Positions 2,639-63,213 of a stretch of DNA of 64,000 nt are shown here, one piece after another; within the stretch, counting starts at the first letter, position 1; each line of letters begins with the position of its first letter. The translations under genes and the position numbers were made by a program. Below the pieces are notes generated by a model. That model was not told the origin of the DNA. It saw only the letters and a list, made by a program, of their open reading frames with translations, and searched no databases. This stretch comes from Candidatus Niyogibacteria bacterium. Its GTDB lineage: Bacteria > Patescibacteriota > Minisyncoccia > HO2-45-28. The stretch is from contig CP066691.1 in the NCBI GenBank assembly GCA_016432485.1, positions 676,944 to 740,943 on the forward strand, in the 5' to 3' direction.

Positions 2639-3682
2639 TCAAGTTAATGTTTTATTTCCCCGACGCAGCGCGTTTTCTACAATGTCCCTGATTAAATCGT
2701 TATAATCAATGCCCGCAACTTTGGCCGCATCGCCGAACTCTTCATTTAATGATATGTCGGGATTGGAATTAACTTCTAAAATATAAGGCCTTCTGTTTTC
2801 GCTGACTCGTATATCAATTCTGGCGTAATCACGACAACCGAGCAATTGAAAGGCCTTGAGCGCTATTTTTTCGAGGCGGTTTTTTAATATGGTTTCAATT
2901 TGTGCCGGAAAACGAGCTCTAGTGCCATATTCTCTTTTTGTGGAATTCCACTTTGCTTCGTATGAGAATACTTTAGGTTCTGTCGGATCCAAGCCGCTGA
3001 AATCAAGTTCTCCAATTCCAAAAATTCTTGGAGGATTGTCTACGACCACCACGGTAAACTCCCGTCCTTCAATGAATTCTTCAACCAGCGCCGGCTGCTT
3101 ATATCGCCCGTGAATGAATTGTATTTTTTCTTCCGCCTCTTGAAATGTTCCGACTACGGATTTTTTAGTGATGCCGACGCTGCCATCTTCTCTGACCGGT
3201 TTGATAATAAAAGGCGGGGTTATTGATTCAAGATTCGGTTTTTCTCCAATGGGGGCGTAAACCGATGGCGGAACCGGAATGCCCGAAGAGCGTAAAATTT
3301 GTTTGCAGCGCATCTTATTTAACGAAAGGCCCAACGGCATAGGTGGGGCGCCGGTGTAAGGCAACTTTAAAAGTTCCAGCCATCCGGCAACATACATTTC
3401 CGTTAGACTCCTGTGCGGGTGATTATGAAGAGACACACATAAATTAAAAATCACATCCGGCTGTATTTTTTCAAGCGCGGCTGTAATTTTGGAATCAGAA
3501 TTTTTTAGATTTAATGTTCGGACATTAAGCCCCGTTTTTTCCAGGGCTTGTTTTACGTCTTTAACATCCTGCACATCTTCTTGATCGTTGAGCTCGGAAT
3601 CAAAATGGTTTTCTATTTTTTGCAGTGGTTCGATGTTCGCGGCGTTGTATAAAATCAAACAAGTTTTTCCTTCAAGTCTCAC
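2639..3682 (-). CDS. ddl: ATP-grasp D-alanine--D-alanine ligase family protein
   Basis: ATP-grasp core FIIKPVREDGSVGITKK...EEFIEGREFTVVVV and Ddl-like C-terminus EVNSNPDISLNEEFGDAAKVAGIDYNDLI. Confidence 0.6.
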   Translation of the reverse strand: MRLEGKTCLILYNAANIEPLQKIENHFDSELNDQEDVQDVKDVKQALEKTGLNVRTLNLKNSDSKITAALEKIQPDVIFNLCVSLHNHPHRSLTEMYVAGWLELLKLPYTGAPPMPLGLSLNKMRCKQILRSSGIPVPPSVYAPIGEKPNLESITPPFIIKPVREDGSVGITKKSVVGTFQEAEEKIQFIHGRYKQPALVEEFIEGREFTVVVVDNPPRIFGIGELDFSGLDPTEPKVFSYEAKWNSTKREYGTRARFPAQIETILKNRLEKIALKAFQLLGCRDYARIDIRVSENRRPYILEVNSNPDISLNEEFGDAAKVAGIDYNDLIRDIVENALRRGNKTLT

Positions 3683-39929: not shown

Positions 39930-39949
39930 GGCGGGCGGCAAATTTTTTG

Positions 39950-39993
39950 AAAAATATAAAGAGAAAGGCACCGTCAACTGAATGAACGGTGCC
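39950..39993 (-). terminator. intrinsic terminator of minus-strand gene 40055-40543
   Basis: Minus strand AGGCACCGTTCATTCAGTTGACGGTGCCT + TTCTCTTTATATTTTT. Confidence 0.6.
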
Positions 39994-40054
39994 TGTGATG
40001 GACAGCACTCGAAGGTGACTATCCGGAAACCTTTAGAACGAACGCTTACTCCTC

Positions 40055-40543
40055 CTACATCCACACCGGCCCTCGAGTTCCCCACGTGTAGGGAAGCCCG
40101 ATGCCAGCGCAGCCGTACTCGCCGCGTCTCGCCTTTTTCCAAAGGACGAGCTGTGCGTGGCGGACCTTCTGGTCACACACCACGCACAGGCGAAGCTGCC
40201 TGATCCGATCGTTCTTCACGAACCGGATCAGCGCAACCTCGACATCGGCTTGCCGACCTGATGTCTCCACCAGATCGTCGGGACCGAGCGCCGGCGGCTC
40301 CTGCGGCACTTCCGCGTATCCGTACGCGTAGTATTCGCCGTTGTAGTAATCGAGCCGGAGCGTGAAGTCGCCGAAGTTGATCTTCGGACGATGCACCACA
40401 CTTTGCCGGTCCGACCAGATCCCGAAGAGGAAGAAGAGAATCGCTTCTCTCCACCTCGACTCGGGGAATTCCTGCGACGACAGACCGCTGACCTGGATGC
40501 CATTGCTGATGACACCCGCGAGACGCGCAACTAGCTGATTCAT
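40055..40543 (-). CDS. hypothetical 162-aa protein, GC-rich island gene
   Basis: Start MNQLVARLAG preceded by AGGAGG; consensus promoter 40708-40736; Tyr/Gly-rich centre DYYNGEYYAYGY and CVVCDQ...H segment; no recognised family. Confidence 0.5.
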   Translation of the reverse strand: MNQLVARLAGVISNGIQVSGLSSQEFPESRWREAILFFLFGIWSDRQSVVHRPKINFGDFTLRLDYYNGEYYAYGYAEVPQEPPALGPDDLVETSGRQADVEVALIRFVKNDRIRQLRLCVVCDQKVRHAQLVLWKKARRGEYGCAGIGLPYTWGTRGPVWM

Positions 40544-40707
40544 ACGAACCTCCTGGGAGGTACTCCGCAATACCACACTACTGAACCATTCAGCAGGTGA
40601 ATTGTGGAGGCAGCCGCATTTCTGCAGCAACAAGCGAGAAACTAAGGAATAATTTCCCATTTGTTGCCGCAAAAGCCAAAAATCAATGTGCTTAATTTAC
40701 TGTAATA

Positions 40708-40736
40708 AGTATAGCATATATAAACTCATATGTCAA
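40708..40736 (-). promoter_or_regulatory. consensus sigma70 promoter (TTGACA-17-TATACT) on minus strand with ~160-nt leader
   Basis: Minus strand TTGACATATGAGTTTATATATGCTATACT. Confidence 0.55.
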
Positions 40737-40904
40737 GCCAAAACAGAGCAATCAAAAAAAGCCCTTATTTCAGGCCATTTTCCACTTTTAAATTCTTATG
40801 GAAATTTTTCTTTGCATTGCCCTACGAAGCCTTGGTCCTACTCCGTAGCAGTCACTACTGCGAAGGACGCAGCGAAGTATGGGGCGGCAAATTCTTTGTT
40901 TTTT

Positions 40905-40950
40905 ACAATTTTAAAAATGAGAAACCCGCTACGCCCGAAGACGTAGCGGG
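40905..40950 (-). terminator. intrinsic terminator of gene 40979-41608 (minus)
   Basis: CCCGCTACG-TCTTCGGG-CGTAGCGGG + TTTCTCATTTTT on minus strand. Confidence 0.65.
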
Positions 40951-40978
40951 TGGGCAGTCTGCTTAGTTTTTGTTGCGA

Positions 40979-41608
40979 TCACCACCATGGCGGGCGTTCG
41001 AAGTCGCGAAGCGAGATGTTGTTCACGTTGATCCACGCATCGTAGCAGTCACCACCGTCGAGCTTGGCGGACAGCTCGGAGCCATCCTCAAACTTGATGT
41101 GGAGATTCTCGCCGACCACGTCAATCTCGGTGAGCTTCTTGCCAACGAATTCGCTCGTGAGCTTCGCGACGAACTGCTGTCGTGCCGCTTCGTGCGCTTC
41201 CGCCCTACGACGCTCTCGCTCTTCCTTCTCGCGCTGAGCCCGCGCCTCGTAATCCCTGCGGATCGTTTCCTTGAGCGTCGGGTTCGATACATAAAGCGCG
41301 ATTCCCACGGCAGGCACTTCACGCCAACCGCCGCCCTCGATCTTCTTGCGCTGTTGTTTCCGCATGAACGTATGGCGGATCTCGACAGTCCAAGGATCGG
41401 TAAGGGCGATGTTGTCGCTCGGAACCTCGAAACTCCGATCTCCGGATTCGATCTTCACCAGCTCTCCGAAGAGAGACGCTCCGACAACCTGAGGATTCGG
41501 CGAGAAGCCGAGCTCTCGCACCTGATGACCACCAGACACGACCCATCCTCCCTCGTTGAGCTTGTTGACAAGCTCTATCGGGGACAACGAAGTGCTGTGC
41601 CGGTTCAT
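40979..41608 (-). CDS. hypothetical 209-aa protein, GC-rich island gene
   Basis: Start MNRHSTSL after AGGAGG; Arg/Glu-rich coiled segment RDYEARAQREKEERERRRAEAHEAARQQ; no recognised family. Confidence 0.5.
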   Translation of the reverse strand: MNRHSTSLSPIELVNKLNEGGWVVSGGHQVRELGFSPNPQVVGASLFGELVKIESGDRSFEVPSDNIALTDPWTVEIRHTFMRKQQRKKIEGGGWREVPAVGIALYVSNPTLKETIRRDYEARAQREKEERERRRAEAHEAARQQFVAKLTSEFVGKKLTEIDVVGENLHIKFEDGSELSAKLDGGDCYDAWINVNNISLRDFERPPWW

Positions 41609-41675
41609 CGCGTTCACCTCCTAAGGTTTGATTTGTTCAAGGGAATGTAGATAATTCCACACTCCGACTGTTTAC

Positions 41676-41704
41676 AGTGTAGCAAGTATATATGACTTTG
41701 TCAA
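41676..41704 (-). promoter_or_regulatory. consensus sigma70 promoter (TTGACA-17-TACACT), minus strand
   Basis: Minus strand TTGACAAAGTCATATATACTTGCTACACT. Confidence 0.55.
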
Positions 41705-41766
41705 GCTCAGGTACAGTTAACCTTATGAGGTGACATTCTTGATGCGATAGGGTGACAAATTCTTTT

Positions 41767-42525
41767 TTAGATTTTATGAGCAACAATGACAACTCTATGG
41801 CGTTTCAACTCAATACCTTCTTGCGTTTTCATTTTTTCAACATACTCGGACAAAAATTTCCCGTCTTTAGTTGGGTCAAAATCCTTAAAAATAGGCACAC
41901 TTTCAAGCCAAAGGCTGAAATTATCAATATCCGAATAATATTCGGAGTAAAAAAATTCTTTTGCGAAAATCTCCTTAAAGCCAAGTGTTTCAAGCTCCGT
42001 CTTTTTCGATGCAAGGACGGATTTATCCCAGCCGCCAAAATTTTGGCCCCGACCAAAAACCTCCTTCAATTCCTTTGCGTCTTTCTCGCCGATACCAATT
42101 TCTATAAAACAACCACTCTTTTTCAAAACTCGATGAATTTCTTGATAAGGAGTTGGGCCTCTACGACTGTAAATCAAATCAAAATATTTGTCTTTAAATG
42201 GAAGTTTTTCTGCCTCGGCTTTTTGAAAAGTAACATTAGAAACTTTCTGTTCTTCTTGAAACTGCTTGGCCTTAGCGAGCATTTCAGAAGATATATCAAT
42301 TCCAAAAGTTTTATGAAATTTTTCTGCTATTTTAAGCGTAAATCTTCCGTCGGCACAACCAATATCAAGAGCGGTCTTATCTTTGTGGCCATACTTAATA
42401 AGTTGCTCAAGAAAAATTTCTTCTGGATTCCCATTGGGAAAATGGCTTTTGTGAATTGCTTCGGACTTATAGCCGCCGAATTTTTTAGCAACTTTATCAT
42501 AAAACTTTTGGTCAGGAATATTCAT
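41767..42525 (-). CDS. class I SAM-dependent methyltransferase
   Basis: Motif I ALDIGCADGRFT; AT-rich like host genome. Confidence 0.7.
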   Translation of the reverse strand: MNIPDQKFYDKVAKKFGGYKSEAIHKSHFPNGNPEEIFLEQLIKYGHKDKTALDIGCADGRFTLKIAEKFHKTFGIDISSEMLAKAKQFQEEQKVSNVTFQKAEAEKLPFKDKYFDLIYSRRGPTPYQEIHRVLKKSGCFIEIGIGEKDAKELKEVFGRGQNFGGWDKSVLASKKTELETLGFKEIFAKEFFYSEYYSDIDNFSLWLESVPIFKDFDPTKDGKFLSEYVEKMKTQEGIELKRHRVVIVAHKI

Positions 42526-42837
42526 AGGATTAAAAAATTTTCTTTTCTGCTTCTAACGAAATCGGGAATTTCTTTTTCCCCTAAAAGATTTGCTTCGCAA
42601 ATTTAACGGGGCACGTATTTTTCTCCGAATTCTTTTGCTGTTTTGGCATCCTGAAAGGAAGTGACAATTTCCCTCCTTCGCTTTCAGCTACGGACGGACA
42701 AGCAAGTTTTTTTTTGCTTTGCACTTCGTAGCTTCAGCGAAGGATGTGGCGGCATTCAATCCAAGAATTCGCGAAGCGAATACCTAAAGAATATAGGATT
42801 TTAAAAATGATGACAACAATGACAATCAGAAAAAAGA

Positions 42838-42870
42838 AACAGGCCGAACGCTCTTGCGAACGCTGGCCTG
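42838..42870 (-). terminator. intrinsic terminator of gene 42888-43379 (minus)
   Basis: ACAGGCC-loop-GGCCTGT then TTTCTTTTTTCT on minus strand. Confidence 0.6.
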
Positions 42871-42887
42871 TTGGTTGTGGTTATTCC

Positions 42888-43379
42888 TCACGGCAGTTCT
42901 CCGTTCAGGATTTCCTGCCACGAGTTCACCTGCTTGACGCGGCTGAGGAAGCGAGCGTATCGCCACACTTCATCGGGACGCGGCTGGAAGAGGTAGAGCG
43001 TGCTCACCGTAGCGAGGTTGCCCAAGACTTCCAATCGGTCGTCAACAAAGTGGGTAACGCCCAACTCCTCACAGATACCGGCCTTCTCGTGTCGCTCACG
43101 GCAGAAGCGAACGCGCTCGCGTCCGATTCCAGTGAGGTCATAGAAGCGGTGATGGTCGAGCCATTGCAGGGTTTTGTTCTGCACACGCTGACCGCACTTC
43201 GAGACAAGGAATACCTTGTCGCCGAACCGCTTCTCCACGAGCTGACGCAGAGCGTCGAAGACGCCCGGCACTGCCGTAGTCCGCAGGTAATTGTCAGTGA
43301 AGAACGAGGTATCGGTTCCGTCGTTCACTCGGTCGATGATGACGCCGCCGATATCGACGCCAAGCGTTTCTGCATTCAA
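42888..43379 (-). CDS. hypothetical 163-aa protein (degenerate HAD-like motifs), GC-rich, TTG start
   Basis: AGGAGG 8 nt before TTG; LGVDIGGVIID, VFLVSKCG, THFVDDRLEVL loosely resemble HAD motifs I/II/IV with non-canonical motif I. Confidence 0.45.
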   Translation of the reverse strand: MNAETLGVDIGGVIIDRVNDGTDTSFFTDNYLRTTAVPGVFDALRQLVEKRFGDKVFLVSKCGQRVQNKTLQWLDHHRFYDLTGIGRERVRFCRERHEKAGICEELGVTHFVDDRLEVLGNLATVSTLYLFQPRPDEVWRYARFLSRVKQVNSWQEILNGELP

Positions 43380-43436
43380 CGTTCTGCCCTCCTATCAAGG
43401 CACATTTTAACCTAAGCACTATGCCTAGATTTGAAA

Positions 43437-43465
43437 GCAATCATAGCATATCCAATCTAATACGT
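43437..43465 (-). promoter_or_regulatory. sigma70 promoter (TTGACG-17-TATGAT) minus strand, overlapping an 11-bp-stem hairpin
   Basis: Minus strand CAAGAAGCGGC-CAAAC-GCCGCTTCTTGACGTATTAGATTGGATATGCTATGAT. Confidence 0.5.
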
Positions 43466-43542
43466 CAAGAAGCGGCGTTTGGCCGCTTCTTGGAAAGAAT
43501 CACTAGGATTAAAAATTTTTCTTTTCTATTTTTCTTACGTGA

Positions 43543-43559
43543 TGCCGCGGGTGGGAGTT
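43543..43559. repeat. 17-bp direct repeat of tRNA-Leu 3' end (TGCCGCGGGTGGGAGTT) 82 bp beyond the tRNA
   Basis: Matches 43645-43661; intervening DNA forms nested hairpin GTGGGAGTT...GGGCTGCC-TAAA-GGCAGCCC...AACTCCCAC. Confidence 0.6.
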
Positions 43560-43642
43560 CTTTTGACTCGCTTTGCTCGTCTGCAAGCCTGGGCTGCCTA
43601 AAGGCAGCCCTTCAACTCCCACCAATAATTATTTTAAATTCT

Positions 43643-43730
43643 TGGTGCCGCGGGTGGGAGTTGAACCCACATGACCTTGCGGTCGCAGGATTTTGAGTCC
43701 TGTGCGTCTGCCAGTTCCGCCACCGCGGCA
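43643..43730 (-). tRNA. tRNA-Leu (anticodon CAA), CCA encoded
   Basis: Minus strand TGCCGCGGTGGCGGAACTGGCAGACGCACAGGACTCAAAATCCTG + long variable arm + GGGTTCAACTCCCACCCGCGGCACCA. Confidence 0.8.
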
Positions 43731-51968: not shown

Positions 51969-52139
51969 AGAGAGAGTAAAATGCCACTGTTCAATGTGAA
52001 TGGGTTGGCACAAGGTCTTTGTCAACTTTTCAGATAAGGAGAAAAGACACATAGGACACCTGTTTTTGGCGTTTTTTTCGTAACACAGGCGAAAGGGGCA
52101 TTGAGCCCAAAGCAACATATCTCCAAGGAGGAGAGGAAC

Positions 52140-53588
52140 GTGGCAAAGCCCAAGAGTGAGCACAGAACAGCGGAAGAGGGAAGCCTCGGCACCCTCGGCG
52201 ATTTGGCGGTGGGTGGCCTCGTCGTCAGAGGCAAGGCCGCCAAGAAACCGTCGGATGACGACGGCTTCGGCATCCCCGATCTCACCGGCATCAAGCCGGC
52301 GGAGGAGTTGGAGGACGAGCGCTTGCGCGCCGAAAGGAGGGAGGAGAAGACAGCCTCCTTCCTCGAGGCCGTGCCGTCGGCAGTCAAGATGCTTCTCGAG
52401 CGGATTCGCTCCAAGGCGGGAGCCGAGGAGGCCCGGCAGATTCTGCAGGAGAGGATCCTGGACGTTCAGGACCCCGAACTGCGGGGTCGCGCTCGCTGGC
52501 TCTACGCCCGTGAGTTCGTGGCCCGCGCCGTGGAAAACGGCGGGTCGCCCAACATGTTCGAGGTTCTCAATCACCTCGGCATGAAGGATGATGGCCTCAA
52601 ACTCGTCGGGGAGCCCGAGGGGAACAAGGTCGTCACCATCCGGGTGCAGGTCGGGAAGAAGTTCTTTGTCCCGGCCCACATTCCGACCGGCATGGAGCCG
52701 GTGGTGAAGGAAGCGTTCCAGCTTCTTCACCAGCTTTCCGGCGTCACCAAGGAAAAGCAGTACGATGAGCGAAAGGCTGCTCTCGAGGCGTTCACCAAGG
52801 ACGTCTCGCGCGAGTGGGACGACCTCCTCTCCGGCCAGCCCGGGACCTACGTCTTCTACGTGCCCGACGAAAAGGGCACAAGGAAGACGGACACCGGCGA
52901 ACGCGTGCCATGGACTTACTTCGGAGGCCACCTCAAGGTGGTTTCTGACGGTGGAACCTTCGTGGCCGTGGGGGCTCTCGGCGCCTTTGAGAGGTCGAGA
53001 ATCCTGGCCGAAGCCATCGCCTGGCAGGTGGCCGTTATCGTTCCCTCCGTTCAGAAGGGGTTCGAGAGGGATGCGGAGGGCAGAGGGCCAAGGATCTCGC
53101 CCGAGCGCCTGCCCAAAGATCAGTTCAAAGCGGCCATCCATCTTCACAGCCTGATGAACCGCGCCTTCGTCCTTCACGAGGCCAACATGGCCAAGAAGGC
53201 CGAGGCCGACAAGGCCAAGGCCGAGGCGACGGTGGAGCACGAAGCCTTCCTGCTGGATGGCGCCGACGGCGTGGCTTTCGTCAAGCACCTCCGCTTCAAC
53301 GATGTGCCCCATCCGTGGGCGCTCGTGGAGCGCAAGGCCGGCGAGATCCGGGTCGTGGAAGCCCACCCTGCGGAAGATTTCTTCCCGCCTGAGAGCTTCG
53401 GGTTCATGCCGGAGGGCGAGGATTTCGCGGGTCTGGATAAGACCCTGCGCAACTTCTTGCGCTACGCCAGAACCAAGGCCGAGCGGGCCAAGGAGAAGGG
53501 CAAGGGCTTCGACTCCGGAAACGCCACGGAGGAGGAGATGAAGGCGTACGCCGAAGATTTGGGAGTTCCCACCGACGGACGCTCCTGA
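52140..53588 (+). CDS. hypothetical 482-aa protein, strongly GC-rich (~63%) foreign gene, GTG start
   Basis: AGGAGGAGAGGAAC then GTG; codon usage unlike rest of window; Lys/Ala/Glu-rich C-terminal coiled segment; no recognised family. Confidence 0.55.
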   Translation: MAKPKSEHRTAEEGSLGTLGDLAVGGLVVRGKAAKKPSDDDGFGIPDLTGIKPAEELEDERLRAERREEKTASFLEAVPSAVKMLLERIRSKAGAEEARQILQERILDVQDPELRGRARWLYAREFVARAVENGGSPNMFEVLNHLGMKDDGLKLVGEPEGNKVVTIRVQVGKKFFVPAHIPTGMEPVVKEAFQLLHQLSGVTKEKQYDERKAALEAFTKDVSREWDDLLSGQPGTYVFYVPDEKGTRKTDTGERVPWTYFGGHLKVVSDGGTFVAVGALGAFERSRILAEAIAWQVAVIVPSVQKGFERDAEGRGPRISPERLPKDQFKAAIHLHSLMNRAFVLHEANMAKKAEADKAKAEATVEHEAFLLDGADGVAFVKHLRFNDVPHPWALVERKAGEIRVVEAHPAEDFFPPESFGFMPEGEDFAGLDKTLRNFLRYARTKAERAKEKGKGFDSGNATEEEMKAYAEDLGVPTDGRS

Positions 53589-57177: not shown

Positions 57178-57747
57178 TTGTGTTTTTTTATCTTTTATTA
57201 TAAGATATTCACGGCCGACACGATGGAAATGTCCATCGGAAAGCCGGCATATTTAAGGGCCGATAGGCCGCGTTCCTTGATAAAGGAAGAAAAAATGGAA
57301 AAAGCGCCTGAATTTGTTTTACAGGATATTCAAAATATCCTTAATACATCCGAACGTCTTAATAAACGCAAAGACGAAATTAAAAGATTTTTAAAAATTA
57401 TAGAAGGATTTCTTACAGAAAGCGGCGAACTAGATCGCTTATCATCAGGATCAGAGATTACTAAAATCAATTTTAGAGAACCGCTTGAGAGTTATTCCTG
57501 CAGTATTTTGTCTAGGATTGATGCGTCATCTGGATGGAAAGGGAGAATGTTGTTTAGATTGTATGATATGGGGATTCAACAGAATGTATTAGATATTTCT
57601 TCAGATAATGTTAGCGGGCTTTCAAGACATTTGATGCCGATTTTTTATCTCGCATTGCCAGAAATTCTCGAGGCGCTGGTAAATTTGTTTCCTAAATTGG
57701 GGGAGAATATACAAGAACTTATTCAGATTTCTAATATGACACGATAA
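57178..57747 (+). CDS. hypothetical protein
   Basis: ORF only; start may be internal MEMSIGK. Confidence 0.3.
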   Translation: MCFFIFYYKIFTADTMEMSIGKPAYLRADRPRSLIKEEKMEKAPEFVLQDIQNILNTSERLNKRKDEIKRFLKIIEGFLTESGELDRLSSGSEITKINFREPLESYSCSILSRIDASSGWKGRMLFRLYDMGIQQNVLDISSDNVSGLSRHLMPIFYLALPEILEALVNLFPKLGENIQELIQISNMTR

Positions 57748-57816
57748 ACTAATTATAAAATTATAATCACTTTTTGATTCTTCGCGCAAAGCGAAGAATT
57801 TTTTTTGTCGAGATTT

Positions 57817-57888
57817 TGGGCACACCAGGACTCGAACCTGGAACCACCAAGGTATAAGCTTGGCGCTCTGCCATTGAGCTATGTGCCC
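57817..57888 (-). tRNA. tRNA with anticodon UAU (AUA-reading tRNA-Ile)
   Basis: Minus strand GGGCACATAGCTCAATGGCAGAGCG-CCAAG-CTTATAC-CTTGG-TGGTT-CCAGGTTCGAGTCCTGG-TGTGCCCA; cloverleaf fits, loop CU-UAU-AC. Confidence 0.7.
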
Positions 57889-58017
57889 ATCGCGATGAAG
57901 TCAAGGCGGGCGCATCATATTTTATATTATCGTTTCCTTGACTAATTTACAAGCCAATATATGCTGAAAATGGGTTGAAATTTGAAATAAAACATCCGTT
58001 TTAAGGAGGAGGCAACG

Positions 58018-60078
58018 ATGGCAGAGGTGCGGGAAAACGAGCGGCTGAAATATCACCTTCAAGCCGTGCTTAAAAGTGAAAGAAGGTTTGAGAACGTGAA
58101 TCAGGCCGTAACCAGAATGGTTTTGGCTGACGGCGTGGATAAGGTTTCAATAGCCGGAAGAACAACTTACGATTTCAGATTTTTCCGCAAAGGTCCAAAA
58201 CACATAATCGGCTGGCTTGACGAAATAAATGATTTTGTCAACTTTACGAAAGACGCGGCCGAAGGCGGACCATCTAAAGAAATGGCCTTTGTTTTGGTCG
58301 GTGAGCCCGGAAACGGAAAAACCTTTTTCGTGGATTATATCTGCGACAGGTATAAAAGGTTTACTTCCCTCCCGGAAAACAGGCGCTATACTTTTGAGTT
58401 TGCAAATTTAGACCAGCTTGGCGGATACGGAGGAATCCGTTTCGCCCAATCGCAGACATTTGAAGATCCGGTGATTTTGGCCATGAATTTATTTGAGTCT
58501 GTTGACGAAAACAAGGAGTATTTGCTCAAGTTCGGGTTTGGTGAACAGAGAATAGAGCAATTATTCGGAAACTACAGACCTCTGGGGGCTTGCACGGAAC
58601 ATATTTGGAACGAAATTTTTGTCCATTATGACGGCGACGTTGAGAAAGCTCTTGGGTCCGTAAAAATTGTTCCGGCGAAAATCGGCAATAAAAAATCCGG
58701 CGTTCTTACCGGCAAATATTCGGCTAAAGACAAGATTACTTCTTCCGCCGAGGATATTTTGGGAGATGAAGACCTAAAACGCATGCTTGATATTGAAGAT
58801 GCCGCGCATCCGTACAGATATAATGTCCGCCGGGGAGTGATTGCCCGCGTTGCCGGCGGAGGCATTCTCTTTTTGGACGAGTTTTTCAGAATCAAAAAAG
58901 ACCTTGTGCAGGTTTTTCTTCAGGTTATTCAGGACAGAATTATTGAATTAAGGGGCTTTTGCTGGTACCCGGATATGCTGATTATCGGCACCAGCAACAG
59001 TGATTCATATAAAGATTTTGTGGCCGAGAAGAGCGAAAGTCCGATTAAAGACCGCAGCAGGGTTTGCTATGTTTCCCACTGCACCGATTACAAACTTCAG
59101 CAGCTTTTGACCCGCTATTCTCTTGGTGTGGAAAAGAAGTCCACCGTTATCGGCGAAGAGATGCACGAAGATCCCAATCTCAATTACGCTTTATCGGTCG
59201 CGGTGACTCTTACCCGCCTTCCTCATAGCGACCAGCTTACTCCGGTTGAGACAATGAAATTGGAGGCCGGCGAGATTGCGGGTGATAAAAGCGTCAAGAC
59301 CTTAACGGAAATCAAGGGGACTTTGAACGCGAGCACCGATGTTACCAAGCGCTGGGGGCAAAGGGGCGTAGGACACAGAGGCCTCGGAAGATTTATTAAT
59401 ATTATGCTTGCTATGCCCGAAACACATGAGGGCAAGTGTCTTTTTGCTTACGATTGCTTTAAGGCGGCGGAAAGGGAAGTAATAGATTTTGGCTATGATC
59501 CCGCTGACCGTGAAAAGTTTATGAAAGACATAGCCATTGCCCGCAAGCTTTACCGAGAAAGAATTAAAACAGGTATTTATAACGCTTTTCGCGATGACCC
59601 CGAGGCTGTCCGTAAAGATGTTATGATCTATGTCAACATGATTATAGGCTTTGACTCGGACGCATTGGGTCCGGATAAGATATGGAGGCCCAAAGATCCT
59701 CAAACCGGAGAAGAAAAGCCGCTTAAAATAGATGAGAAATATATTAACAGCGTTGAATCCCGCCTGGGTCTTAATACCAAAGAAACAAGAGATTCATTCA
59801 GAACATCCATCAGAAGGATTTACGGTCAAAAAGCAACCATTGATCCCGATTACGATTTTATGGATAACGAGAGGCTTATCAAGGCAGTGACCGAGGTGCG
59901 TTTGGAGTCGGATTTCGCAGGCGCGGGTTCACTCATTGGCGCTCTGTCCAATCCTACAAACGAAGAAAACGCCCGGCTTCGCAACAGAATGATTGATACT
60001 ATGTTTAAGATGGGTTATTGCAGAACATGCGCGCAAAAAACAATTGAGTATTGGTGCGAGAAAGAAGACGAAGAATAA
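58018..60078 (+). CDS. prkA: PrkA-family AAA serine protein kinase-like protein
   Basis: Walker A VLVGEPGNGKT, PrkA-like blocks ...GGGILFLDEFFRIKKD..., IIGTSNSDSYKDFV..., C-terminal domain. Confidence 0.7.
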   Translation: MAEVRENERLKYHLQAVLKSERRFENVNQAVTRMVLADGVDKVSIAGRTTYDFRFFRKGPKHIIGWLDEINDFVNFTKDAAEGGPSKEMAFVLVGEPGNGKTFFVDYICDRYKRFTSLPENRRYTFEFANLDQLGGYGGIRFAQSQTFEDPVILAMNLFESVDENKEYLLKFGFGEQRIEQLFGNYRPLGACTEHIWNEIFVHYDGDVEKALGSVKIVPAKIGNKKSGVLTGKYSAKDKITSSAEDILGDEDLKRMLDIEDAAHPYRYNVRRGVIARVAGGGILFLDEFFRIKKDLVQVFLQVIQDRIIELRGFCWYPDMLIIGTSNSDSYKDFVAEKSESPIKDRSRVCYVSHCTDYKLQQLLTRYSLGVEKKSTVIGEEMHEDPNLNYALSVAVTLTRLPHSDQLTPVETMKLEAGEIAGDKSVKTLTEIKGTLNASTDVTKRWGQRGVGHRGLGRFINIMLAMPETHEGKCLFAYDCFKAAEREVIDFGYDPADREKFMKDIAIARKLYRERIKTGIYNAFRDDPEAVRKDVMIYVNMIIGFDSDALGPDKIWRPKDPQTGEEKPLKIDEKYINSVESRLGLNTKETRDSFRTSIRRIYGQKATIDPDYDFMDNERLIKAVTEVRLESDFAGAGSLIGALSNPTNEENARLRNRMIDTMFKMGYCRTCAQKTIEYWCEKEDEE

Positions 60079-60105: not shown

Positions 60106-61512
60106 GTGGGCTTTTTTTGTGGGGTTTGTTGTTGTAATATGTGCCTGGAAGTGGATTTCGCGGAGCTTTTTGAAAGGAGGCGGACAGTGGTTAAAGAGTT
60201 TATGACGGAACTGGATATTTTAGGCGAGAACTCGGCGGCGAAAGAACGCCTTGAAAAGCTTTTTGGAGCCGGGCGCGACAAAAGACTATCCGCTAAAATT
60301 TCAGCCCTTGAATCATTCGATGATCTTTTAAATAGAGACAAGAAACGCGAAGATGACGGATTTAAGCCGAAAATAAAATTCAGGAGAATACTTGTTGGTC
60401 CGAATAAGATAATCGTGGTTCCGTATGTTGAGGAAGAACAATTTGTGCATGGAGAATTTGAGCCAACGAACATAGCTCAGCTTTCTCAATTGTCGGATGA
60501 AAAAGAAAAAGATATTGGGGAAACGATTGGACACGGCGACGGCGAAATCGGGGATATAATCAGGGAAGAGCCTTTGCGCGATTCCGGCGGCGACGGAGAC
60601 GGTGACGGAGATGGACAGGACCCCGGTAAAAACGCGGGCCAGGAGTCGGGCGATCATGGATTTGAAGAAGAGGCCTATGAAGCGGGTAAAAAACGAATGG
60701 AACAGCTTCAGCTTCCCAATACTAAAGAAAAACGTAAAAAGATTCCGACAGACGAGTATGTTTATGACCTGATCGACAGGCATAAGGGCTCGGGCCAGCT
60801 TTTGGACAAAAAAGAAACTTTAAAGAGAATTGTCCGCACAAATATTTTTCTCGGACGAATTAACGAGGATAATCTTGACCCGTCAAAGATGATAGTGGGT
60901 CCGCAAGACAAAGTTTTTCGCGTGCTTTCAAGAGAAAGGGTCTGGAAGTCGCAGGCGGTTGTCTTTTTCCTCCGGGACTATTCCGGTTCAATGTATGGCG
61001 AACCGACAAGAGCGCTTATTTCACAGCATTTGGATATATACGGCTGGCTTTTGGTTCAGTATGAAAGAATGGTTGTGCCGAGATTCGTAGTTCACGATAC
61101 TGAGGCCAAAGAAGTTTCCGCTCGTCAGTATTTTAAGCTTAGTTCTGGCGGAGGAACATCAATCATTTCCGGATACAAAAAAATAAATGAAATTGTTGAA
61201 GGCGAAAGTTTGGATAAAGACTATAACGTTTACGTGTTTCAAGGCACTGATGGCGATGACTGGGTAAAAGGCAGCGGGCAGACTCTTGCGGAACTTAAGA
61301 AAATTCTTGGATATGTGAATCGGATGGGTGTTACGGTTTTTAAGCATCCTTATCATATCGCGAACGGCAGAAAAACAACCTTTGAGGAATATATTGAAGA
61401 GGGAGGAATCTTGCAGGAGCGCGACGTTTTCAGAATGCATGTTATGTCAAGCGAGGAGGTGACTGAAGAGATGAATATTGAAGCGATAAAAGCGCTTGTG
61501 GATCAGGATTAA
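60106..61512 (+). CDS. YhbH/YeaH (DUF444) vWA-like protein
   Basis: Acidic GDGDGDG tract, MIDAS-like DYSGSM, follows prkA. Confidence 0.65.
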   Translation: MGFFCGVCCCNMCLEVDFAELFERRRTVVKEFMTELDILGENSAAKERLEKLFGAGRDKRLSAKISALESFDDLLNRDKKREDDGFKPKIKFRRILVGPNKIIVVPYVEEEQFVHGEFEPTNIAQLSQLSDEKEKDIGETIGHGDGEIGDIIREEPLRDSGGDGDGDGDGQDPGKNAGQESGDHGFEEEAYEAGKKRMEQLQLPNTKEKRKKIPTDEYVYDLIDRHKGSGQLLDKKETLKRIVRTNIFLGRINEDNLDPSKMIVGPQDKVFRVLSRERVWKSQAVVFFLRDYSGSMYGEPTRALISQHLDIYGWLLVQYERMVVPRFVVHDTEAKEVSARQYFKLSSGGGTSIISGYKKINEIVEGESLDKDYNVYVFQGTDGDDWVKGSGQTLAELKKILGYVNRMGVTVFKHPYHIANGRKTTFEEYIEEGGILQERDVFRMHVMSSEEVTEEMNIEAIKALVDQD

Positions 61513-61518
61513 GGAGGA

Positions 61519-63213
61519 ATGAACATGAAGCTCTTAGATCCGGCGGCAAAAAAAGATATGGAGGAATGCAAAAAAAGAGCCAGAGCCGCGGGCTTGGTAT
61601 TTCCCGACGACACTCTGGAATATTTTGTTACCAACCGCGATATGCTTGAATTGAGTCCTAAAGTTATGATTCCGACTCTATATGACCACTGGATTCAGGA
61701 TCTTGAAGTGGTGAGAAGTAAATGGATTTATGAGGCCTTTCCGCATAACCCCTATGAAACAGTGATTAATACAAGGCCCCCGATTTCTTTTTATAACGCC
61801 GATAACGCTGACTGGCTGAATGTTATGATTTTTTATCATGTTTTGGCTCACATAGACTTTTTTCAGAATAATATATTTTTCCGAAAAACCTGGGACGATG
61901 ATTTTTGCGGGCAGGCTTTGGCCGACAAACGGCTAATTAACCACATAAGAAAGGAATTGGGAGCCGAAAAAAGATGGGTTGATTATGTCATTGAATTTTC
62001 GAGCGCCATCGGAAATCTCGTCGGCTATTACCCCGAACTGGAAGAAGCTTCAAGGCAAGATGCGCCGGAGGTTTTCGGGAGAGTTTCCGAAAAAACAGAC
62101 TTTTATTTCGGGCATTTTCTTAAGCAGCGTTATGAAGCAAAAGTCATTGATTTGAAATTCTTTTTTGACGAAGTGGAACGCCGTAATCTCTTTCTTAGGA
62201 ATCATGGACGAGAACGCGGAGAAGTCGCTTTCTTTGAAGATGACTATCTTAAAAGCAGGTTTCCGGAGTTTAATGACGTGTTTAGGAAGTGGAAGGAAAA
62301 GAATCATAAACCAAAGCCAAAAGACCTTTTTGAGCATCTCGCGGAAAACTCGGAATTTTTGAATAAAGAAAAAAACAGATGGATGAAAGACGTGCTCCAA
62401 GTGGTCAGAAGGACAAATCTTTATTTTCAGGCGCAGATAAGGACAAAAAATTGCAATGAGGGCTGGGCCAGTTTGTGGCACGAAAGGCTGTTTATACCGG
62501 ACGAAAGGATTAAAACCCGCGAAACGGATTATGCCAAGGTTAATGCCGGAGTCGTTGTTGATCCGAGGATCGGACTTAATCCTTATGCTTTCGGCAAGCA
62601 TATGCTTGAATTTATTGAAGATATGGCAAGGCGCGGAAAATTGTCTCGCGGATATCAGTTGATTAAAGACGCGGAAATAAGGAAACATTACAATTGCGGC
62701 TCCGGAGAAGGGTTTGCTAAAAAAGTTCTCTTTGAAGCCAGAAAATATTTTGACGACCGCCTGCTTTTGAATTTTCTTTCCGACGACGATTTTCAGGATT
62801 TTACGGACAAGCACAAGTTTTTTGTGGTTGGAGCTCGTCTCAGCCCCACGAAGTGGGGCATGGCTGAACTATATATCAAAAGCAAAAGCGGCATAGAATA
62901 TCGCAGACTGCTCAACAAGCATCTATATCATCCTCCGCATATCGTGATTGACGAAAAAAGGAGCGCGGACGGCGGGTTGTATCTTGTTCATGAGTATGAA
63001 GGCAGAACTTTGTTTACAAAGCATATTCCGGAGGTTTTAATCGGCCTTGAGTTTTTGAGCGGCGGATGTGTTGCCCTTGAGACAACCGAATACGAAGAAG
63101 TAAATATGAAGCCGCAGTGGAAACATTTTTGGGAAGGGACGGAGCCGGAATTTAAAAAGGAGCGAGTTCGTTATACTTGTAAAGATAAAGAAGTTGAAAG
63201 GACGGTTTTATAG
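61519..63213 (+). CDS. spoVR: SpoVR/YcgB family protein
   Basis: NEGWASLWHERLF and YHVLAHIDFF motifs; operon position after yhbH. Confidence 0.65.
   Translation: MNMKLLDPAAKKDMEECKKRARAAGLVFPDDTLEYFVTNRDMLELSPKVMIPTLYDHWIQDLEVVRSKWIYEAFPHNPYETVINTRPPISFYNADNADWLNVMIFYHVLAHIDFFQNNIFFRKTWDDDFCGQALADKRLINHIRKELGAEKRWVDYVIEFSSAIGNLVGYYPELEEASRQDAPEVFGRVSEKTDFYFGHFLKQRYEAKVIDLKFFFDEVERRNLFLRNHGRERGEVAFFEDDYLKSRFPEFNDVFRKWKEKNHKPKPKDLFEHLAENSEFLNKEKNRWMKDVLQVVRRTNLYFQAQIRTKNCNEGWASLWHERLFIPDERIKTRETDYAKVNAGVVVDPRIGLNPYAFGKHMLEFIEDMARRGKLSRGYQLIKDAEIRKHYNCGSGEGFAKKVLFEARKYFDDRLLLNFLSDDDFQDFTDKHKFFVVGARLSPTKWGMAELYIKSKSGIEYRRLLNKHLYHPPHIVIDEKRSADGGLYLVHEYEGRTLFTKHIPEVLIGLEFLSGGCVALETTEYEEVNMKPQWKHFWEGTEPEFKKERVRYTCKDKEVERTVL

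What the first reader, a model, noticed from the sequence alone, without database searches (positions are those of the whole stretch)
42838..43560. GC-rich gene abutting tRNA-Leu with a duplicated tRNA 3' end (att-like scar)
There is a third minus-strand GC-rich gene of 163 aa, with a TTG start after AGGAGG and a TTGACG-17-TATGAT promoter. It sits 160 bp from tRNA-Leu(CAA). Immediately 3' of the tRNA, a 17-bp copy of the tRNA's own 3' end (TGCCGCGGGTGGGAGTT) recurs after only 82 bp. The intervening sequence folds into a nested hairpin. This is the classic footprint of site-specific integration into a tRNA gene (attL/attR). No integrase remains, so this is probably a decayed or excised island whose cargo is the GC-rich gene or genes. 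A perfect 11-bp-stem hairpin (CAAGAAGCGGC..GCCGCTTCTTG) separates the repeat from the gene's promoter.
Basis: seen in the sequence. Interest (0 to 1): 0.55.

Follow-up and report, generated by a model that had tools for sequence, protein, structure and literature searches.

The report
Hairpin mini-element duplicating a tRNA end
The repeated tRNA-Leu end is real and bounds an 86-base, hairpin-rich, gene-free insert of a type found behind about one in seven tRNA genes in related tiny (CPR) bacteria, which marks tRNA ends there as gene-insertion hotspots that work without a nearby integrase.

Summary
The att-scar reading is only partly right.

- **What the repeats enclose.** The two 17-nt copies enclose 86 bp of non-coding, strongly folding DNA. 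This contains a 13-nt inverted copy of the tRNA T-arm (X') and two hairpins. The GC-rich gene lies outside the repeats.
- **A recurrent design.** In 1.9 Mb of related Patescibacteria DNA, 35 of 242 tRNAs (Leu, Trp, Tyr, Cys) carry the same design downstream. It never occurs upstream. Some copies are in tandem arrays, and some have cargo genes but no recombinase. X' stays perfectly Watson-Crick complementary to the live tRNA end through compensatory changes, while the displaced copy decays.
- **Empty sites.** Close relatives lack the insert or hold other genes there. The tRNA-Leu 3' flank is a hypervariable insertion hotspot.
- **The GC-rich gene.** It is real: 844 homologues and a HAD-like fold. 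It travels as a promoter-gene-terminator module and sits between two copies of tRNA-trailer sequence.

Best reading: an integrase-less, att-flanked mini-element inserted in the T-loop by a recombinase acting in trans, next to separately acquired cargo. I found no Rfam family or paper describing it. The mechanism is inferred, not shown.

The parts
43643..43729 (-). tRNA-Leu(CAA), divergent from parB; the target gene
   Evidence: ARAGORN. Rfam tRNA at 56.9 bits. Its promoter-like site TTGACA-17-TAGATT lies at 43774-43746. The tRNA-Leu/ParB adjacency is conserved in relatives.
43646..43662 (-). X1: the repeat copy inside the live tRNA, running from T-loop A57/58 to the discriminator A
   Evidence: Exact 17-mer.
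43624..43642 (-). 19-nt AT-rich linker. This is the 'body' position, which holds a palindromic terminator or cargo genes in longer family members.
   Evidence: Sequence. Comparison with other elements.
43611..43623 (-). X': perfect inverted copy (GGTGGGAGTTGAA) of the tRNA T-loop plus the T-stem 3' strand
   Evidence: I15 (13 nt, 100% complementary). It is a family hallmark: 24 of 135 tRNAs have at least 10 nt of it downstream and 0 of 135 have it upstream. It covaries with X1.
43591..43610 (-). H2: perfect 8-bp hairpin GGGCTGCC-TTTA-GGCAGCCC
   Evidence: Fold. The equivalent hairpins in L185 and L018 differ by fully compensatory changes.
43565..43589 (-). H3: imperfect 7-bp hairpin that carries the GAGCAAAGCGAG motif
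   Evidence: Fold. The motif GAGCRAAGCGA is enriched downstream of flagged tRNAs: 5 observed against 0.09 expected.
43543..43559 (-). X2: the displaced copy of the tRNA 3' end (attR-like), followed by TCA instead of CCA
   Evidence: Exact 17-mer. Logan contigs of the same strain end exactly 13 nt past it, at 43572.
43504..43527 (-). tRNA-trailer repeat, copy 2 (AGAAAAGAAAAATTTTTAATCCTA)
   Evidence: D2 (96%). Local alignment score 41 against a shuffle maximum of 24.
43466..43492 (-). Perfect 11-bp hairpin whose 3' arm overlaps the -35 box of gene C. It is probably an insulator or terminator at the cassette's 5' edge.
   Evidence: A hairpin plus -35 is arranged the same way in L134 and L091.
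43440..43468 (-). Promoter of gene C: TTGACG-17-TATGAT with a TG extension
   Evidence: It is conserved at the DNA level with the gene's homologue in L091.
42888..43379 (-). Gene C (NCBI locus tag HYY55_04040): 163 aa, GC-rich, with a HAD-like Rossmannoid fold
   Evidence: 844 homologues at 60-94% identity. AlphaFold2 model at pLDDT 93. Foldseek hits to 3bwv, 1rku and 2p11. No Pfam, PHROG or NCBIfam hit.
42839..42871 (-). Terminator hairpin of gene C, followed by a T-run
   Evidence: Sequence. Conserved downstream of the L091 homologue.
42526..42577 (-). tRNA-trailer sequence, copy 1, abutting the methyltransferase start. It is orthologous to the sequence 85-135 nt downstream of tRNA-Leu in L134 and L199.
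   Evidence: 41 of 46 bases identical to L134. It contains the 24-nt repeat at 42525-42548.
39930..43642 (.). Variable island between the acyl-CoA dehydrogenase terminator and the tRNA 3' end. It holds GC-rich genes A (40055-40543) and B (40979-41608), a low-GC methyltransferase (41767-42525), gene C and the mini-element.
   Evidence: The island is absent in L011, L175, L226 and L015, and replaced by two other genes in L134. GC profile.

Best explanation
The 17-nt repeat is the boundary of an 86-bp, gene-free, hairpin-rich mini-element inserted in the T-loop of tRNA-Leu(CAA).

**Layout, read along the tRNA strand:** tRNA with X1, a 19-nt linker, X' (inverted T-arm copy), hairpin H2, hairpin H3, then X2 (the displaced old 3' end).

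**Family.** It is a short member of a family common in Paceibacteria/Parcubacteria. Fuller members add three things: a palindromic terminator after X1, a second half of X' complementary to the acceptor 3' strand, and a further hairpin H1.

**Most likely origin (inferred).** The unit [X1 - body - X' - hairpins] is a non-autonomous integrative cassette. A recombinase encoded elsewhere inserts it by site-specific recombination at about T55/C56-A58 of the T-loop. The cassette regenerates the tRNA 3' end and pushes the old end downstream. Repeated events build tandem arrays and cargo-bearing versions.

**Role of X'.** X' is kept strictly complementary to X1. It would let the excised or single-stranded form fold into a stem that mimics the duplex tRNA target.

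**Gene C.** The GC-rich gene is not inside this element. It is a separately mobile promoter-gene-terminator module lodged in the same tRNA-adjacent hotspot, between two copies of trailer sequence.

**What is shown and what is inferred.** Shown: the anatomy, the recurrence, the polymorphism, the covariation, and the absence of a recombinase within the 64-kb window. Inferred: the recombination mechanism, its direction, and the hairpin's role.
For: **The element itself**
- The repeat is exact and the spacer is strongly structured.

**Recurrence**
- 18 of 142 tRNAs in ParB-anchored relatives carry a copy of their own last 16 nt at 74-332 nt downstream. None has one upstream.
- 24 of 135 have an exact inverted copy of at least 10 nt downstream. 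None has one upstream.
- Overall, 35 of 242 tRNAs in 1.93 Mb are flagged.
- Repeat length is 16-21 nt, so the junction always falls within the T-loop.

**Homology across tRNA types**
- The design is the same for Leu, Trp, Tyr and Cys.
- Shared non-tRNA motifs are 30-100 times enriched downstream of flagged tRNAs: GGGGTCGNR, YGTGACYRA, CACCTGYGTG, CCTGTAAGG and GAGCRAAGCGA.

**Signs of insertion activity**
- Tandem arrays occur in L034, L075, L043, L073 and L042.
- Cargo versions occur with no recombinase evident among the cargo ORFs. L047 has a kinase-like ORF between X1 and X2. L056 has two ORFs between X2 and an X'-H2-H3-X3 module.
- Relatives with the identical tRNA end have empty sites: L175, L226 and L014. 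The nearest relative, L011, also lacks the insert, though its tRNA-Leu 3' end differs in sequence.
- Only 2 of 120 metagenome loci carrying the 17-mer have a second copy.

**Which copy is the original**
- In L185 and L018 the distal copy is the one followed by the natural next gene, tRNA-Arg. In L185 it also keeps the CCA. So X2 is the original end and X1 came with the insert.

**X' tracks X1, not X2**
- X' is more complementary to X1 than to X2 in 25 of 26 cases.
- In four homologous elements (L023, L029, L025, L024), X1:X' is Watson-Crick in 83 of 83 cells. Eight of 21 pairs changed on both sides, and 0 of 500 shuffles reached this. Meanwhile X2 keeps the ancestral CAAGTCyCTCTCC.

**No recombinase nearby**
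- No recombinase domain was found in 35 window ORFs.

**Gene C**
- Its homologues sit in different neighbourhoods with the same promoter, leader and terminator.
Against: - No recombinase has been linked to these elements.
- No free or phage-borne form was found. The IMG/VR motif scan gave only chance hits.
- The sequence just 5' of X2 does not mimic the T-stem 5' strand, as the core sites of a classical tyrosine integrase would.
- If X1 arrives with the element, the tRNA acceptor 5' strand must still pair with it. Yet acceptor stems differ on both strands between genomes that share the same X2 fossil. So either X1 and X' co-evolved in place, or whole tRNA-plus-element segments were replaced.
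- The short trailers after X1 and X2 resemble each other in the window and in L018. That fits local duplication as well as it fits an attP/attB identity block.
- The sense strand folds better than the antisense strand in 27 of 35 elements, p = 8e-5. This would also fit an RNA role.
- Everything rests on sequence comparison of metagenome assemblies.
Confidence: 0.6

Rival explanations
1. The two 17-mers are the attL/attR of one decayed or excised genomic island or prophage whose cargo was the GC-rich genes. The 86 bp are what random deletion left behind.
For: - The region next to the tRNA 3' end is a variable island that is absent from relatives.
- The GC-rich genes have a foreign base composition and a sporadic distribution.
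- No integrase is present.
- Gene C sits between two trailer copies.
Against: - The genes lie outside the exact repeats, and there is no third copy of the 17-mer.
- The 86 bp are not debris. They share a conserved design, X' - H2 - H3, with L185, L018 and dozens of other tRNAs, with compensatory hairpin changes.
- Independent deletions would not converge on the same structure.
Confidence: 0.1
2. The element is a cis-acting RNA part of the tRNA-Leu precursor. X' pairs with the tRNA's own 3' half, or with X2, to control folding, 3' processing, termination or stability. X2 is a by-product or a decoy.
For: - The fold is very stable (z = -5.25 and -6.83).
- The predicted precursor fold pairs X1 with X', and the 5' acceptor strand with X2.
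- X1:X' complementarity is maintained through 8 double changes.
- The sense strand folds better than the antisense strand in 27 of 35 elements.
- No ordinary terminator follows the tRNA in the window.
Against: - The element is present or absent among close relatives that have identical tRNA ends.
- Tandem arrays, cargo genes and decaying X2 fossils have no place in this model.
- In long versions a strong palindromic terminator sits between the tRNA and X', so X' would rarely be co-transcribed.
- None of the 83 X1:X' cells is a G-U pair. That is more typical of DNA-level copying than of RNA selection.
- No Rfam family matches.
Confidence: 0.12
3. The element arose locally without any mobile element. 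Replication template switching at the tRNA terminator palindrome created the inverted copy (X'), and slippage created the direct copy (X2). Arm-to-arm gene conversion then keeps X' identical to X1.
For: - In long versions X1, the terminator and X' form one continuous long palindrome.
- X1:X' pairing is strictly Watson-Crick with no G-U.
- X1 equals X2 whatever the tRNA type.
- The trailers after X1 and X2 resemble each other.
Against: - Template switching creates no new sequence. Yet H1, H2 and H3 carry motifs shared between different tRNA genes and different genomes, and these are strongly enriched.
- Two different tRNAs in one genome can share near-identical hairpins: L077 Leu and Cys, L025 Tyr and Leu, L041 Trp and Leu.
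- Cargo-bearing versions exist.
Confidence: 0.1

Closest known systems
Integrative elements and genomic islands that target tRNA genes, flanked by attL/attR repeats of the tRNA 3' end (Reiter 1989 and Williams 2002, as cited in PMC9897764)
   Same: - An intact tRNA is followed by a direct copy of its own 3' end that begins in the T-loop.
- Relatives have empty sites.
- Variable cargo sits next to the tRNA 3' side.
   Different: - The repeats are 86 bp apart, not kilobases.
- There is no integrase.
- The insert is a conserved set of hairpins with an inverted T-arm copy.
- There is no T-stem-like core site directly 5' of the distal copy.
CIMEs (cis-mobilizable elements) and tandem accretion at tRNA att sites (PMC5704250)
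   Same: - The element is att-flanked and lacks its own recombination genes.
- Elements accumulate in tandem at one tRNA.
- They are presumed to depend on a recombinase supplied in trans.
   Different: - CIMEs are decayed ICEs or IMEs many kilobases long. Here the unit is 85-330 bp with a conserved structure, which suggests a purpose-built module rather than decay.
- No related ICE or IME is known in these genomes.
Integron gene cassettes with folded attC sites, and the folded single-strand attP of CTX-type phages (from my own knowledge, not tested here)
   Same: - Imperfect inverted repeats (X' and X) flank a variable, branched middle.
- The crossover lies at the edge of the core.
- The inverse core matches the cassette's own start (X1), not the next one (X2).
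- Arrays of small cassettes lack a recombinase of their own.
   Different: - No IntI or Xer link was found.
- There is no R''/L'' sequence consensus.
- The target is a tRNA T-loop rather than attI or dif.
- The cassettes here carry their own strong promoters and terminators.
Casposons and other elements that duplicate a tRNA 3' end as a target-site duplication (from my own knowledge; PMC4046053 was listed but not read)
   Same: A short (14-21 bp) duplication of a tRNA gene's 3' end flanks an insert. A duplication made from the target itself would explain why X1 equals X2 for every tRNA type.
   Different: - There is no Cas1 or polymerase gene.
- The terminal inverted repeats are not at the element's ends.
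- X' tracks X1 while X2 decays, which favours X1 belonging to the element.
Tycheposons and their cargo-only satellites in Prochlorococcus (10.1101/2020.12.28.424599; abstract seen, details from my own knowledge)
   Same: - tRNA-linked hotspots in streamlined genomes.
- Arrays of partial tRNA repeats.
- Cargo units with no integrase of their own.
   Different: - A different phylum.
- Tycheposons have identifiable integrases or transposases elsewhere in the family.
- No inverted T-arm hairpin module has been described for them.

Membership tests
tRNA-targeting integrative element (attL/attR) | A direct repeat identical to the tRNA 3' end, downstream of the intact tRNA | tested here: met
   Exact 17-mer, extending to 19 of 20 bases.
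tRNA-targeting integrative element (attL/attR) | The repeat begins at a canonical sublocation (T-loop or anticodon loop) | tested here: met
   It begins at A57/58 of the T-loop. Across the family the repeat is 16-21 nt long.
tRNA-targeting integrative element (attL/attR) | An integrase gene inside the element, next to an att site | tested here: not met
   The 86 bp hold no ORF. None of the 35 window ORFs tested has a recombinase or transposase domain.
tRNA-targeting integrative element (attL/attR) | An empty site in related genomes | tested here: met
   L011, L175, L226 and L014. 118 of 120 metagenome loci carrying the 17-mer have a single copy.
CIME (att-flanked element without recombination genes) | attL and attR are retained while the integrase and transfer genes are lost | tested here: met
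CIME (att-flanked element without recombination genes) | Derived by deletion from an ICE or IME, and mobilised in trans by a related integrase | not testable with these tools
   No autonomous relative was found. The viral scan gave only chance hits.
Integron cassette / attC | An IntI integrase and an attI site next to the array | tested here: not met
   No tyrosine recombinase was found in the window. The array starts at a tRNA gene.
Integron cassette / attC | A folded imperfect palindrome whose inverse core pairs with the cassette's own core | tested here: inconclusive
   The design is analogous: X' pairs better with X1 than with X2 in 25 of 26 cases and folds as a three-way junction. No attC sequence consensus was tested or seen.
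Integron cassette / attC | Promoterless cassettes | tested here: not met
   Gene C and the L042 cassettes carry their own consensus promoters.
Intrinsic terminator of the tRNA | A GC-rich hairpin followed by a T-run directly downstream of the tRNA | tested here: not met
   No terminator-like site lies between 43380 and 43642 on the minus strand. H2 is followed by AGGCTTGC.
Curated RNA family (Rfam 15) | A match at the family's gathering score | tested here: not met
   Only the tRNA passes. The rest fall far below threshold, in the window and in two full-length relatives.
MITE | Terminal inverted repeats at both ends plus a short target duplication | tested here: not met
   The inverted copy X' is internal, and its partner is the tRNA itself. 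The duplication is 17-21 nt.
HAD-superfamily phosphatase (gene C protein) | A Rossmannoid HAD fold with motif I DxD, motif II S/T, and motif IV DD | tested here: inconclusive
   Structural matches are weak (TM-score 0.60-0.68 to 3bwv, 1rku and 2p11). D9 is nearly invariant, and S60 and D113-D114 are invariant, but the D+2 position is an invariant Gly. No Pfam HAD hit.

The most novel reading that the evidence does not exclude
Paceibacteria may carry a previously undescribed gene-cassette system that uses tRNA T-loops as its docking site. Small cassettes, with or without a promoter-driven cargo gene, would end in a branched hairpin module (X'-H2-H3). In single-stranded or excised form this module would pair with the cassette's own tRNA-end copy, mimicking the duplex target much as attC does. 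A genome-encoded recombinase, not yet identified, would insert the cassettes one after another at the tRNA. This would explain how genomes with hardly any recognisable mobile elements acquire accessory genes such as the GC-rich genes here.
Probability: 0.2. Interest if true: 0.8.

Novelty: new variant of a known kind. Interest (0 to 1): 0.6.

Why it matters
Candidate Phyla Radiation bacteria have tiny genomes and few recognisable plasmids, transposons or integrases. Even so, their gene content varies between close relatives.

A recurrent, structured, integrase-less insert was found at about 15% of the tRNA genes examined. It occurs in tandem arrays, and it carries promoter-bearing cargo genes. 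This points to a specific and testable route of gene gain at tRNA ends.

The finding also gives a concrete sequence signature for locating such sites genome-wide: an inverted T-arm copy ending in TYGAA, then hairpins, then a direct copy of the tRNA end starting in the T-loop. The same signature can be used to search, by co-occurrence, for the enzyme responsible.

On the practical side, these tRNA-end fragments and palindromes break short-read assemblies. Several relatives' contigs end at this tRNA. In the GC-rich gene, gene callers picked the antisense ORF instead of the real one.

Tried and rejected
- **Further copies of the 17-mer.** None in the window at up to 3 mismatches.
- **Rfam.** At E < 1-5, searches on the window and on two full-length elements returned only the tRNA plus generic hairpin noise.
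- **Protein family searches.** Pfam, PHROGs, NCBIfam and a PDB sequence search gave nothing usable for genes A, B and C.
- **IMG/VR scans.** The scan for GGGGTCGCGA...GTGACCGA gave 27 hits, all chance matches inside GC-rich phage genes with no tRNA nearby. The scan for the window's own X'-H2 junction gave no hit.
- **Far-range search.** I looked for X2 or X' kilobases from their tRNA to find an autonomous element. Only small cargo ORFs turned up, with no recombinase evident.
- **A third, degenerate element in the window.** I tested whether the spacer between gene C and the methyltransferase holds one, orthologous to the 85 nt after the tRNA in L134. Only the last 46 nt or so are significantly similar. 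The left part is not (score 21 against a shuffle mean of 18.4, with 50 of 300 shuffles as high). I dropped that claim.
- **A shared motif downstream of each GC-rich gene.** RAATTTGCCGCCC / TGCCGCCNCATNCTTCGCTG is present, but support is weak: 15 of 100 shuffles give two 13-mer hits.
- **Exact-protein look-up of gene C.** It found nothing, because the gene caller on those contigs chose the antisense ORF.
- **AFDB fold search.** Not available on the machine.
- **Other mechanisms considered and set aside on anatomy alone.** These were a primer-binding-site analogy, group I/II intron guide sequences, IS200/IS605, IS110 bridge RNA, and CRISPR-transposon homing spacers. The required protein genes or core motifs are absent, and X' does not consistently reach the tRNA 3' terminus.
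Full report
**1.

The window comes from a Candidatus Niyogibacteria genome in the Patescibacteria (CPR). Gene C is NCBI protein HYY55_04040, on an 837-kb contig.

- tRNA-Leu(CAA) lies at 43643-43729 on the minus strand, divergent from parB.
- The 17-mer TGCCGCGGGTGGGAGTT occurs exactly twice, at 43646-43662 inside the tRNA and at 43543-43559. Even at up to 3 mismatches only 0.2 hits are expected.
- The match extends to 19 of 20 bases. The distal copy reads TCA where the tRNA has its encoded CCA.
- The 86 nt between the copies fold into a three-way structure at -45.4 kcal/mol, z = -5.25.
- The 11-bp hairpin, the TTG start after AGGAGG, and the TTGACG-17-TATGAT promoter are all present.
- The gene is 58-59% GC in a 34-47% GC neighbourhood.
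- One correction: the gene starts 263 bp from the tRNA. The quoted 160 bp is the distance from the distal repeat.

**2. Anatomy of the spacer**

Read on the tRNA strand, the order is:

| Part | Coordinates | Description |
|---|---|---|
| X1 | 43646-43662 | Repeat copy inside the tRNA |
| Linker | 43624-43642 | 19-nt AT-rich stretch |
| X' | 43611-43623 | GGTGGGAGTTGAA |
| H2 | 43591-43610 | Perfect 8-bp hairpin |
| H3 | 43565-43589 | Imperfect hairpin with GAGCAAAGCGAG |
| AAAAG | 43560-43564 | Short linker |
| X2 | 43543-43559 | Displaced repeat copy |

X' is a perfect inverted copy of the T-loop plus the T-stem 3' strand (I15).

**3. The spacer is not a one-off scar**

I fetched 80 loci anchored on ParB relatives. 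tRNA-Leu(CAA) next to parB is conserved among them.

- L018 has 65% ParB identity and a different tRNA 3' end. It shows the same layout built from its own tRNA sequence: X' GGGAGTTGAA, two hairpins, then a direct copy of its own end.
- Of 142 tRNAs in these loci, 18 have a copy of their own last 16 nt at 74-332 nt downstream. None has one upstream.
- 24 of 135 have an exact inverted copy of at least 10 nt downstream. The upstream maximum is 8 nt.
- With the metagenome loci added, 35 of 242 tRNAs in 1.93 Mb are flagged.
- The tRNAs involved are Leu(CAA), Trp, Tyr and Cys.
- The direct repeat is 16-21 nt long, so the junction always lies in the T-loop. X' nearly always ends in TCGAA or TTGAA, the complement of T54-A58.

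Full-length members have this order: tRNA/X1, a palindromic terminator, X'a (the complement of the acceptor 3' strand), hairpin H1, X'b, H2, H3, then X2. The window's copy is a short version without the terminator, X'a or H1.

Several motifs that are not derived from the tRNA are 30-100 times enriched in the 400 nt behind flagged tRNAs. They are shared between tRNA types and between genomes: GGGGTCGNR, YGTGACYRA just before X2, CACCTGYGTG, CCTGTAAGG and GAGCRAAGCGA. The elements are therefore homologous, not independent accidents.

No Rfam family matches them. Six full-text literature searches found no description of them.

**4. Evidence that these are insertions**

- *Presence or absence.*
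  - The closest relative, L011 (ParB 80%), runs from the tRNA straight into the acyl-CoA dehydrogenase terminator.
  - L175, L226 and L014 carry the identical 17-mer and have no element.
  - Of 120 metagenome loci holding the 17-mer, only L185 and L198 have a second copy.
- *Tandem arrays.* Seen in L034, L075, L043, L073 and L042.
- *Cargo.*
  - L047 has a kinase-like ORF between X1 and X2.
  - L056 has two small ORFs between X2 and a complete X'-H2-H3-X3 module.
  - L042 has several X-like copies, each followed by a consensus promoter and a small gene.
  - None of this cargo looks like a recombinase.
- *Polarity.* In L185 and L018 the distal copy is the one followed at natural spacing by the next gene, tRNA-Arg. 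In L185 it keeps the CCA. X2 is therefore the original end, and X1 arrived with the insert.

**5. X' follows X1, not X2**

- X' is more complementary to X1 than to X2 in 25 of 26 cases.
- Four elements are homologous along their length: L023, L029, L025 and L024 (67% column identity).
  - Three of them (L023, L029, L025) keep nearly the same X2 fossil, CAAGTCyCTCTCC. That fossil matches the live tRNA end of L024.
  - Their live X1 sequences differ, and X' differs in step.
- On this alignment all 83 X1:X' cells are Watson-Crick, and 8 of 21 pairs changed on both sides. No shuffle out of 500 reaches this, and slid controls give at most 1.
- There is not a single G-U pair. I read that as copying or homogenisation at the DNA level, or as a strict duplex requirement, rather than ordinary RNA-helix drift. 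This is inference.
- The tRNA-sense strand folds better than the antisense strand in 27 of 35 elements, p = 8e-5. That leaves room for a role as single-stranded DNA or RNA.

**6. The gene and the island**

- *Gene C is real.*
  - It has 844 homologues at 60-94% identity across Patescibacteria.
  - A confident model (pLDDT 93) has a Rossmannoid fold. Its nearest matches are HAD-type phosphatases and a deoxyribonucleotidase-like protein (TM-score 0.60-0.68).
  - The nucleophile Asp is kept (D9, nearly invariant), but the D+2 position is an invariant Gly.
  - Pfam, PHROGs and NCBIfam are silent.
- *Gene C moves as a module.*
  - In L091 (89-90% protein identity; gene 54% GC in a 37% GC locus) the promoter, leader and terminator are conserved at the DNA level, but the neighbours are different.
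  - L096 and L099 differ again.
- *Gene B* (HYY55_04030) has 27 homologues scattered across Patescibacteria.
- *The interval between the tRNA and the acyl-CoA dehydrogenase is hypervariable.*
  - It is empty in L011.
  - The dehydrogenase gene is absent in L015, and both it and the dCTP deaminase gene are absent in L175 and L226.
  - It holds two unrelated genes in L134.
  - It holds genes A and B, the methyltransferase, gene C and the mini-element in the window.
- *Trailer duplication.*
  - A 24-nt repeat at 96% identity lies just after X2 (43504-43527) and again just before the methyltransferase start (42525-42548).
  - The second copy and its surroundings match the sequence 85-135 nt behind the tRNA in L134 and L199 at 41 of 46 bases.
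  - So the gene C module sits between two copies of tRNA-trailer sequence. That is the footprint of an insertion into the trailer, with a newer tRNA-proximal layer (mini-element, X2, trailer copy 2 and gene C) placed in front of the older one.
  - I could not show that the rest of that spacer is a decayed element.

**7. What was not found**

- No integrase, recombinase or transposase domain was found in 35 window ORFs, including all four island genes.
- No viral contig carries the module.
- No terminator-like site lies between the tRNA and the gene C promoter.

**8. A lead from assemblies of the same strain**

- Seven Logan contigs are 100% identical to the window. Five of them end at 43572.
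- With k = 31, this is exactly the last k-mer that still contains base 43542 in front of X2 plus 13 nt of the element.
- A graph branch there means some reads have a different base before X2 followed by the element's start.
- A tandem second copy, an excised circle, or a strain with a different flank at the X2 junction would each produce that. This is inference and needs the reads.

**9. Verdict**

The repeat is the boundary of a miniature, integrase-less, structured element inserted in the tRNA T-loop. It is one member of a family that appears to be undescribed.

Its closest conceptual relatives are att-flanked CIMEs and tandem accretion at tRNA genes (PMC5704250; for tRNA fragments as att sites, PMC9897764). 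By design it also resembles integron attC sites and the folded attP of CTX-type phages.

It fails the membership tests for a classical integrase-bearing island, an integron, a MITE, a terminator and every Rfam family. The recombination mechanism and the enzyme remain unknown.

Noticed in passing
window 42525-42548 and 43504-43527: A 24-nt direct repeat (TAGGATTAAAAA[A/T]TTTTCTTTTCT, 96% identity) brackets the gene C module. The copy at the methyltransferase start belongs to a stretch orthologous to the tRNA-proximal trailer of L134 and L199.
   Followed up: yes
window 39933-39945, 40870-40893, 42735-42754 (minus strand): Each of the three GC-rich genes is followed, 90-135 nt after its stop codon, by a related motif (RAATTTGCCGCCC / TGCCGCCNCATNCTTCGCTG). 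It occurs nowhere else in the window. Statistical support is weak.
   Followed up: partly
window 40736-40708, 41704-41676, 43468-43440 (minus strand): All three GC-rich genes have near-consensus promoters, TTGAC(A/G)-17-TAnnnT with a TG extension, set in AT-rich spacers. Each gene also has an AGGAGG site and its own terminator, so they look like self-contained expression modules.
   Followed up: partly
window 52101-53588 (+) and 28518-29042 (+): Two more GC-rich ORFs without any Pfam match: 495 aa at 63% GC and 174 aa at 55% GC. They may be further foreign modules of the same kind.
   Followed up: no
window 43572 and 42697; loci L001-L007: Short-read (Logan) contigs of the same strain, 100% identical to the window, end at 43572 in five cases and at 42697 in two. 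The first position is exactly X2 plus 13 nt. It implies an assembly-graph branch at the X2 junction.
   Followed up: partly
window 42744-43415 (+); L001-L006: Gene callers on the Logan contigs annotated the antisense ORF (198-202 aa) instead of the real 163-aa gene C. This is why the exact-protein look-up failed. It is an annotation trap in GC-rich genes with TTG starts.
   Followed up: yes
L013 1-202: A complete tRNA-Leu with a different acceptor stem is followed, about 60 nt later, by the 3' half (from the anticodon loop onward) of a tRNA-Leu identical to the window's. The contig ends there. This suggests whole-tRNA replacement or an anticodon-loop integration event.
   Followed up: no
L016 about 2700-3020 and L017 about 7500-7806: A LAGLIDADG-like ORF (...VVGVALGDGNLSNPNGRA...) starts within about 25 nt of the tRNA-Leu 3' end. 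In L091 an HNH gene sits between tRNA-Cys and tRNA-Leu(UAA). Free-standing homing-endonuclease genes at tRNA ends may be another route of insertion at these sites.
   Followed up: no
L042 240-1760: An array lies downstream of tRNA-Tyr. It starts with a full element. Then come several diverged tRNA-end-like copies (GTTCCAACyTCGTmCCA..GCGCAC), each followed by a consensus promoter and a small gene. A second near-identical copy of the element's left half also occurs.
   Followed up: partly
L024, L025, L034, L041 (elements behind tRNA-Leu, Tyr, Trp): The hairpin just before X2 often reads GGTCCTGTAAGGACC. Its 7-nt loop CUGUAAG looks like a tRNA-Tyr anticodon loop, even in elements at Leu and Trp genes.
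   Followed up: no
window 57816-57889 and 2258-2606: The window also holds tRNA-Ile with the rare anticodon UAU, next to a low-GC 189-aa ORF without a Pfam hit (57178-57747), and a tmRNA with the tag ANYQPALAYA. Neither RNA gene has an X' or X2 copy downstream.
   Followed up: partly
window 60106-63213: DUF444 and SpoVR-like genes follow a 686-aa ORF at 58018-60078 that I did not scan. The trio is typical of a PrkA/YeaH/YcgB stress operon, which would be unexpected in a minimal CPR genome.
   Followed up: no
L198 380-700: A T-arm plus acceptor 3' fragment identical to the window's X is preceded by sequence that is not tRNA. It is followed by a terminator, hairpins with the AAGCAAAGCGAGG motif, and a second diverged copy. 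It is either an array member far from its tRNA or an element outside a tRNA.
   Followed up: no
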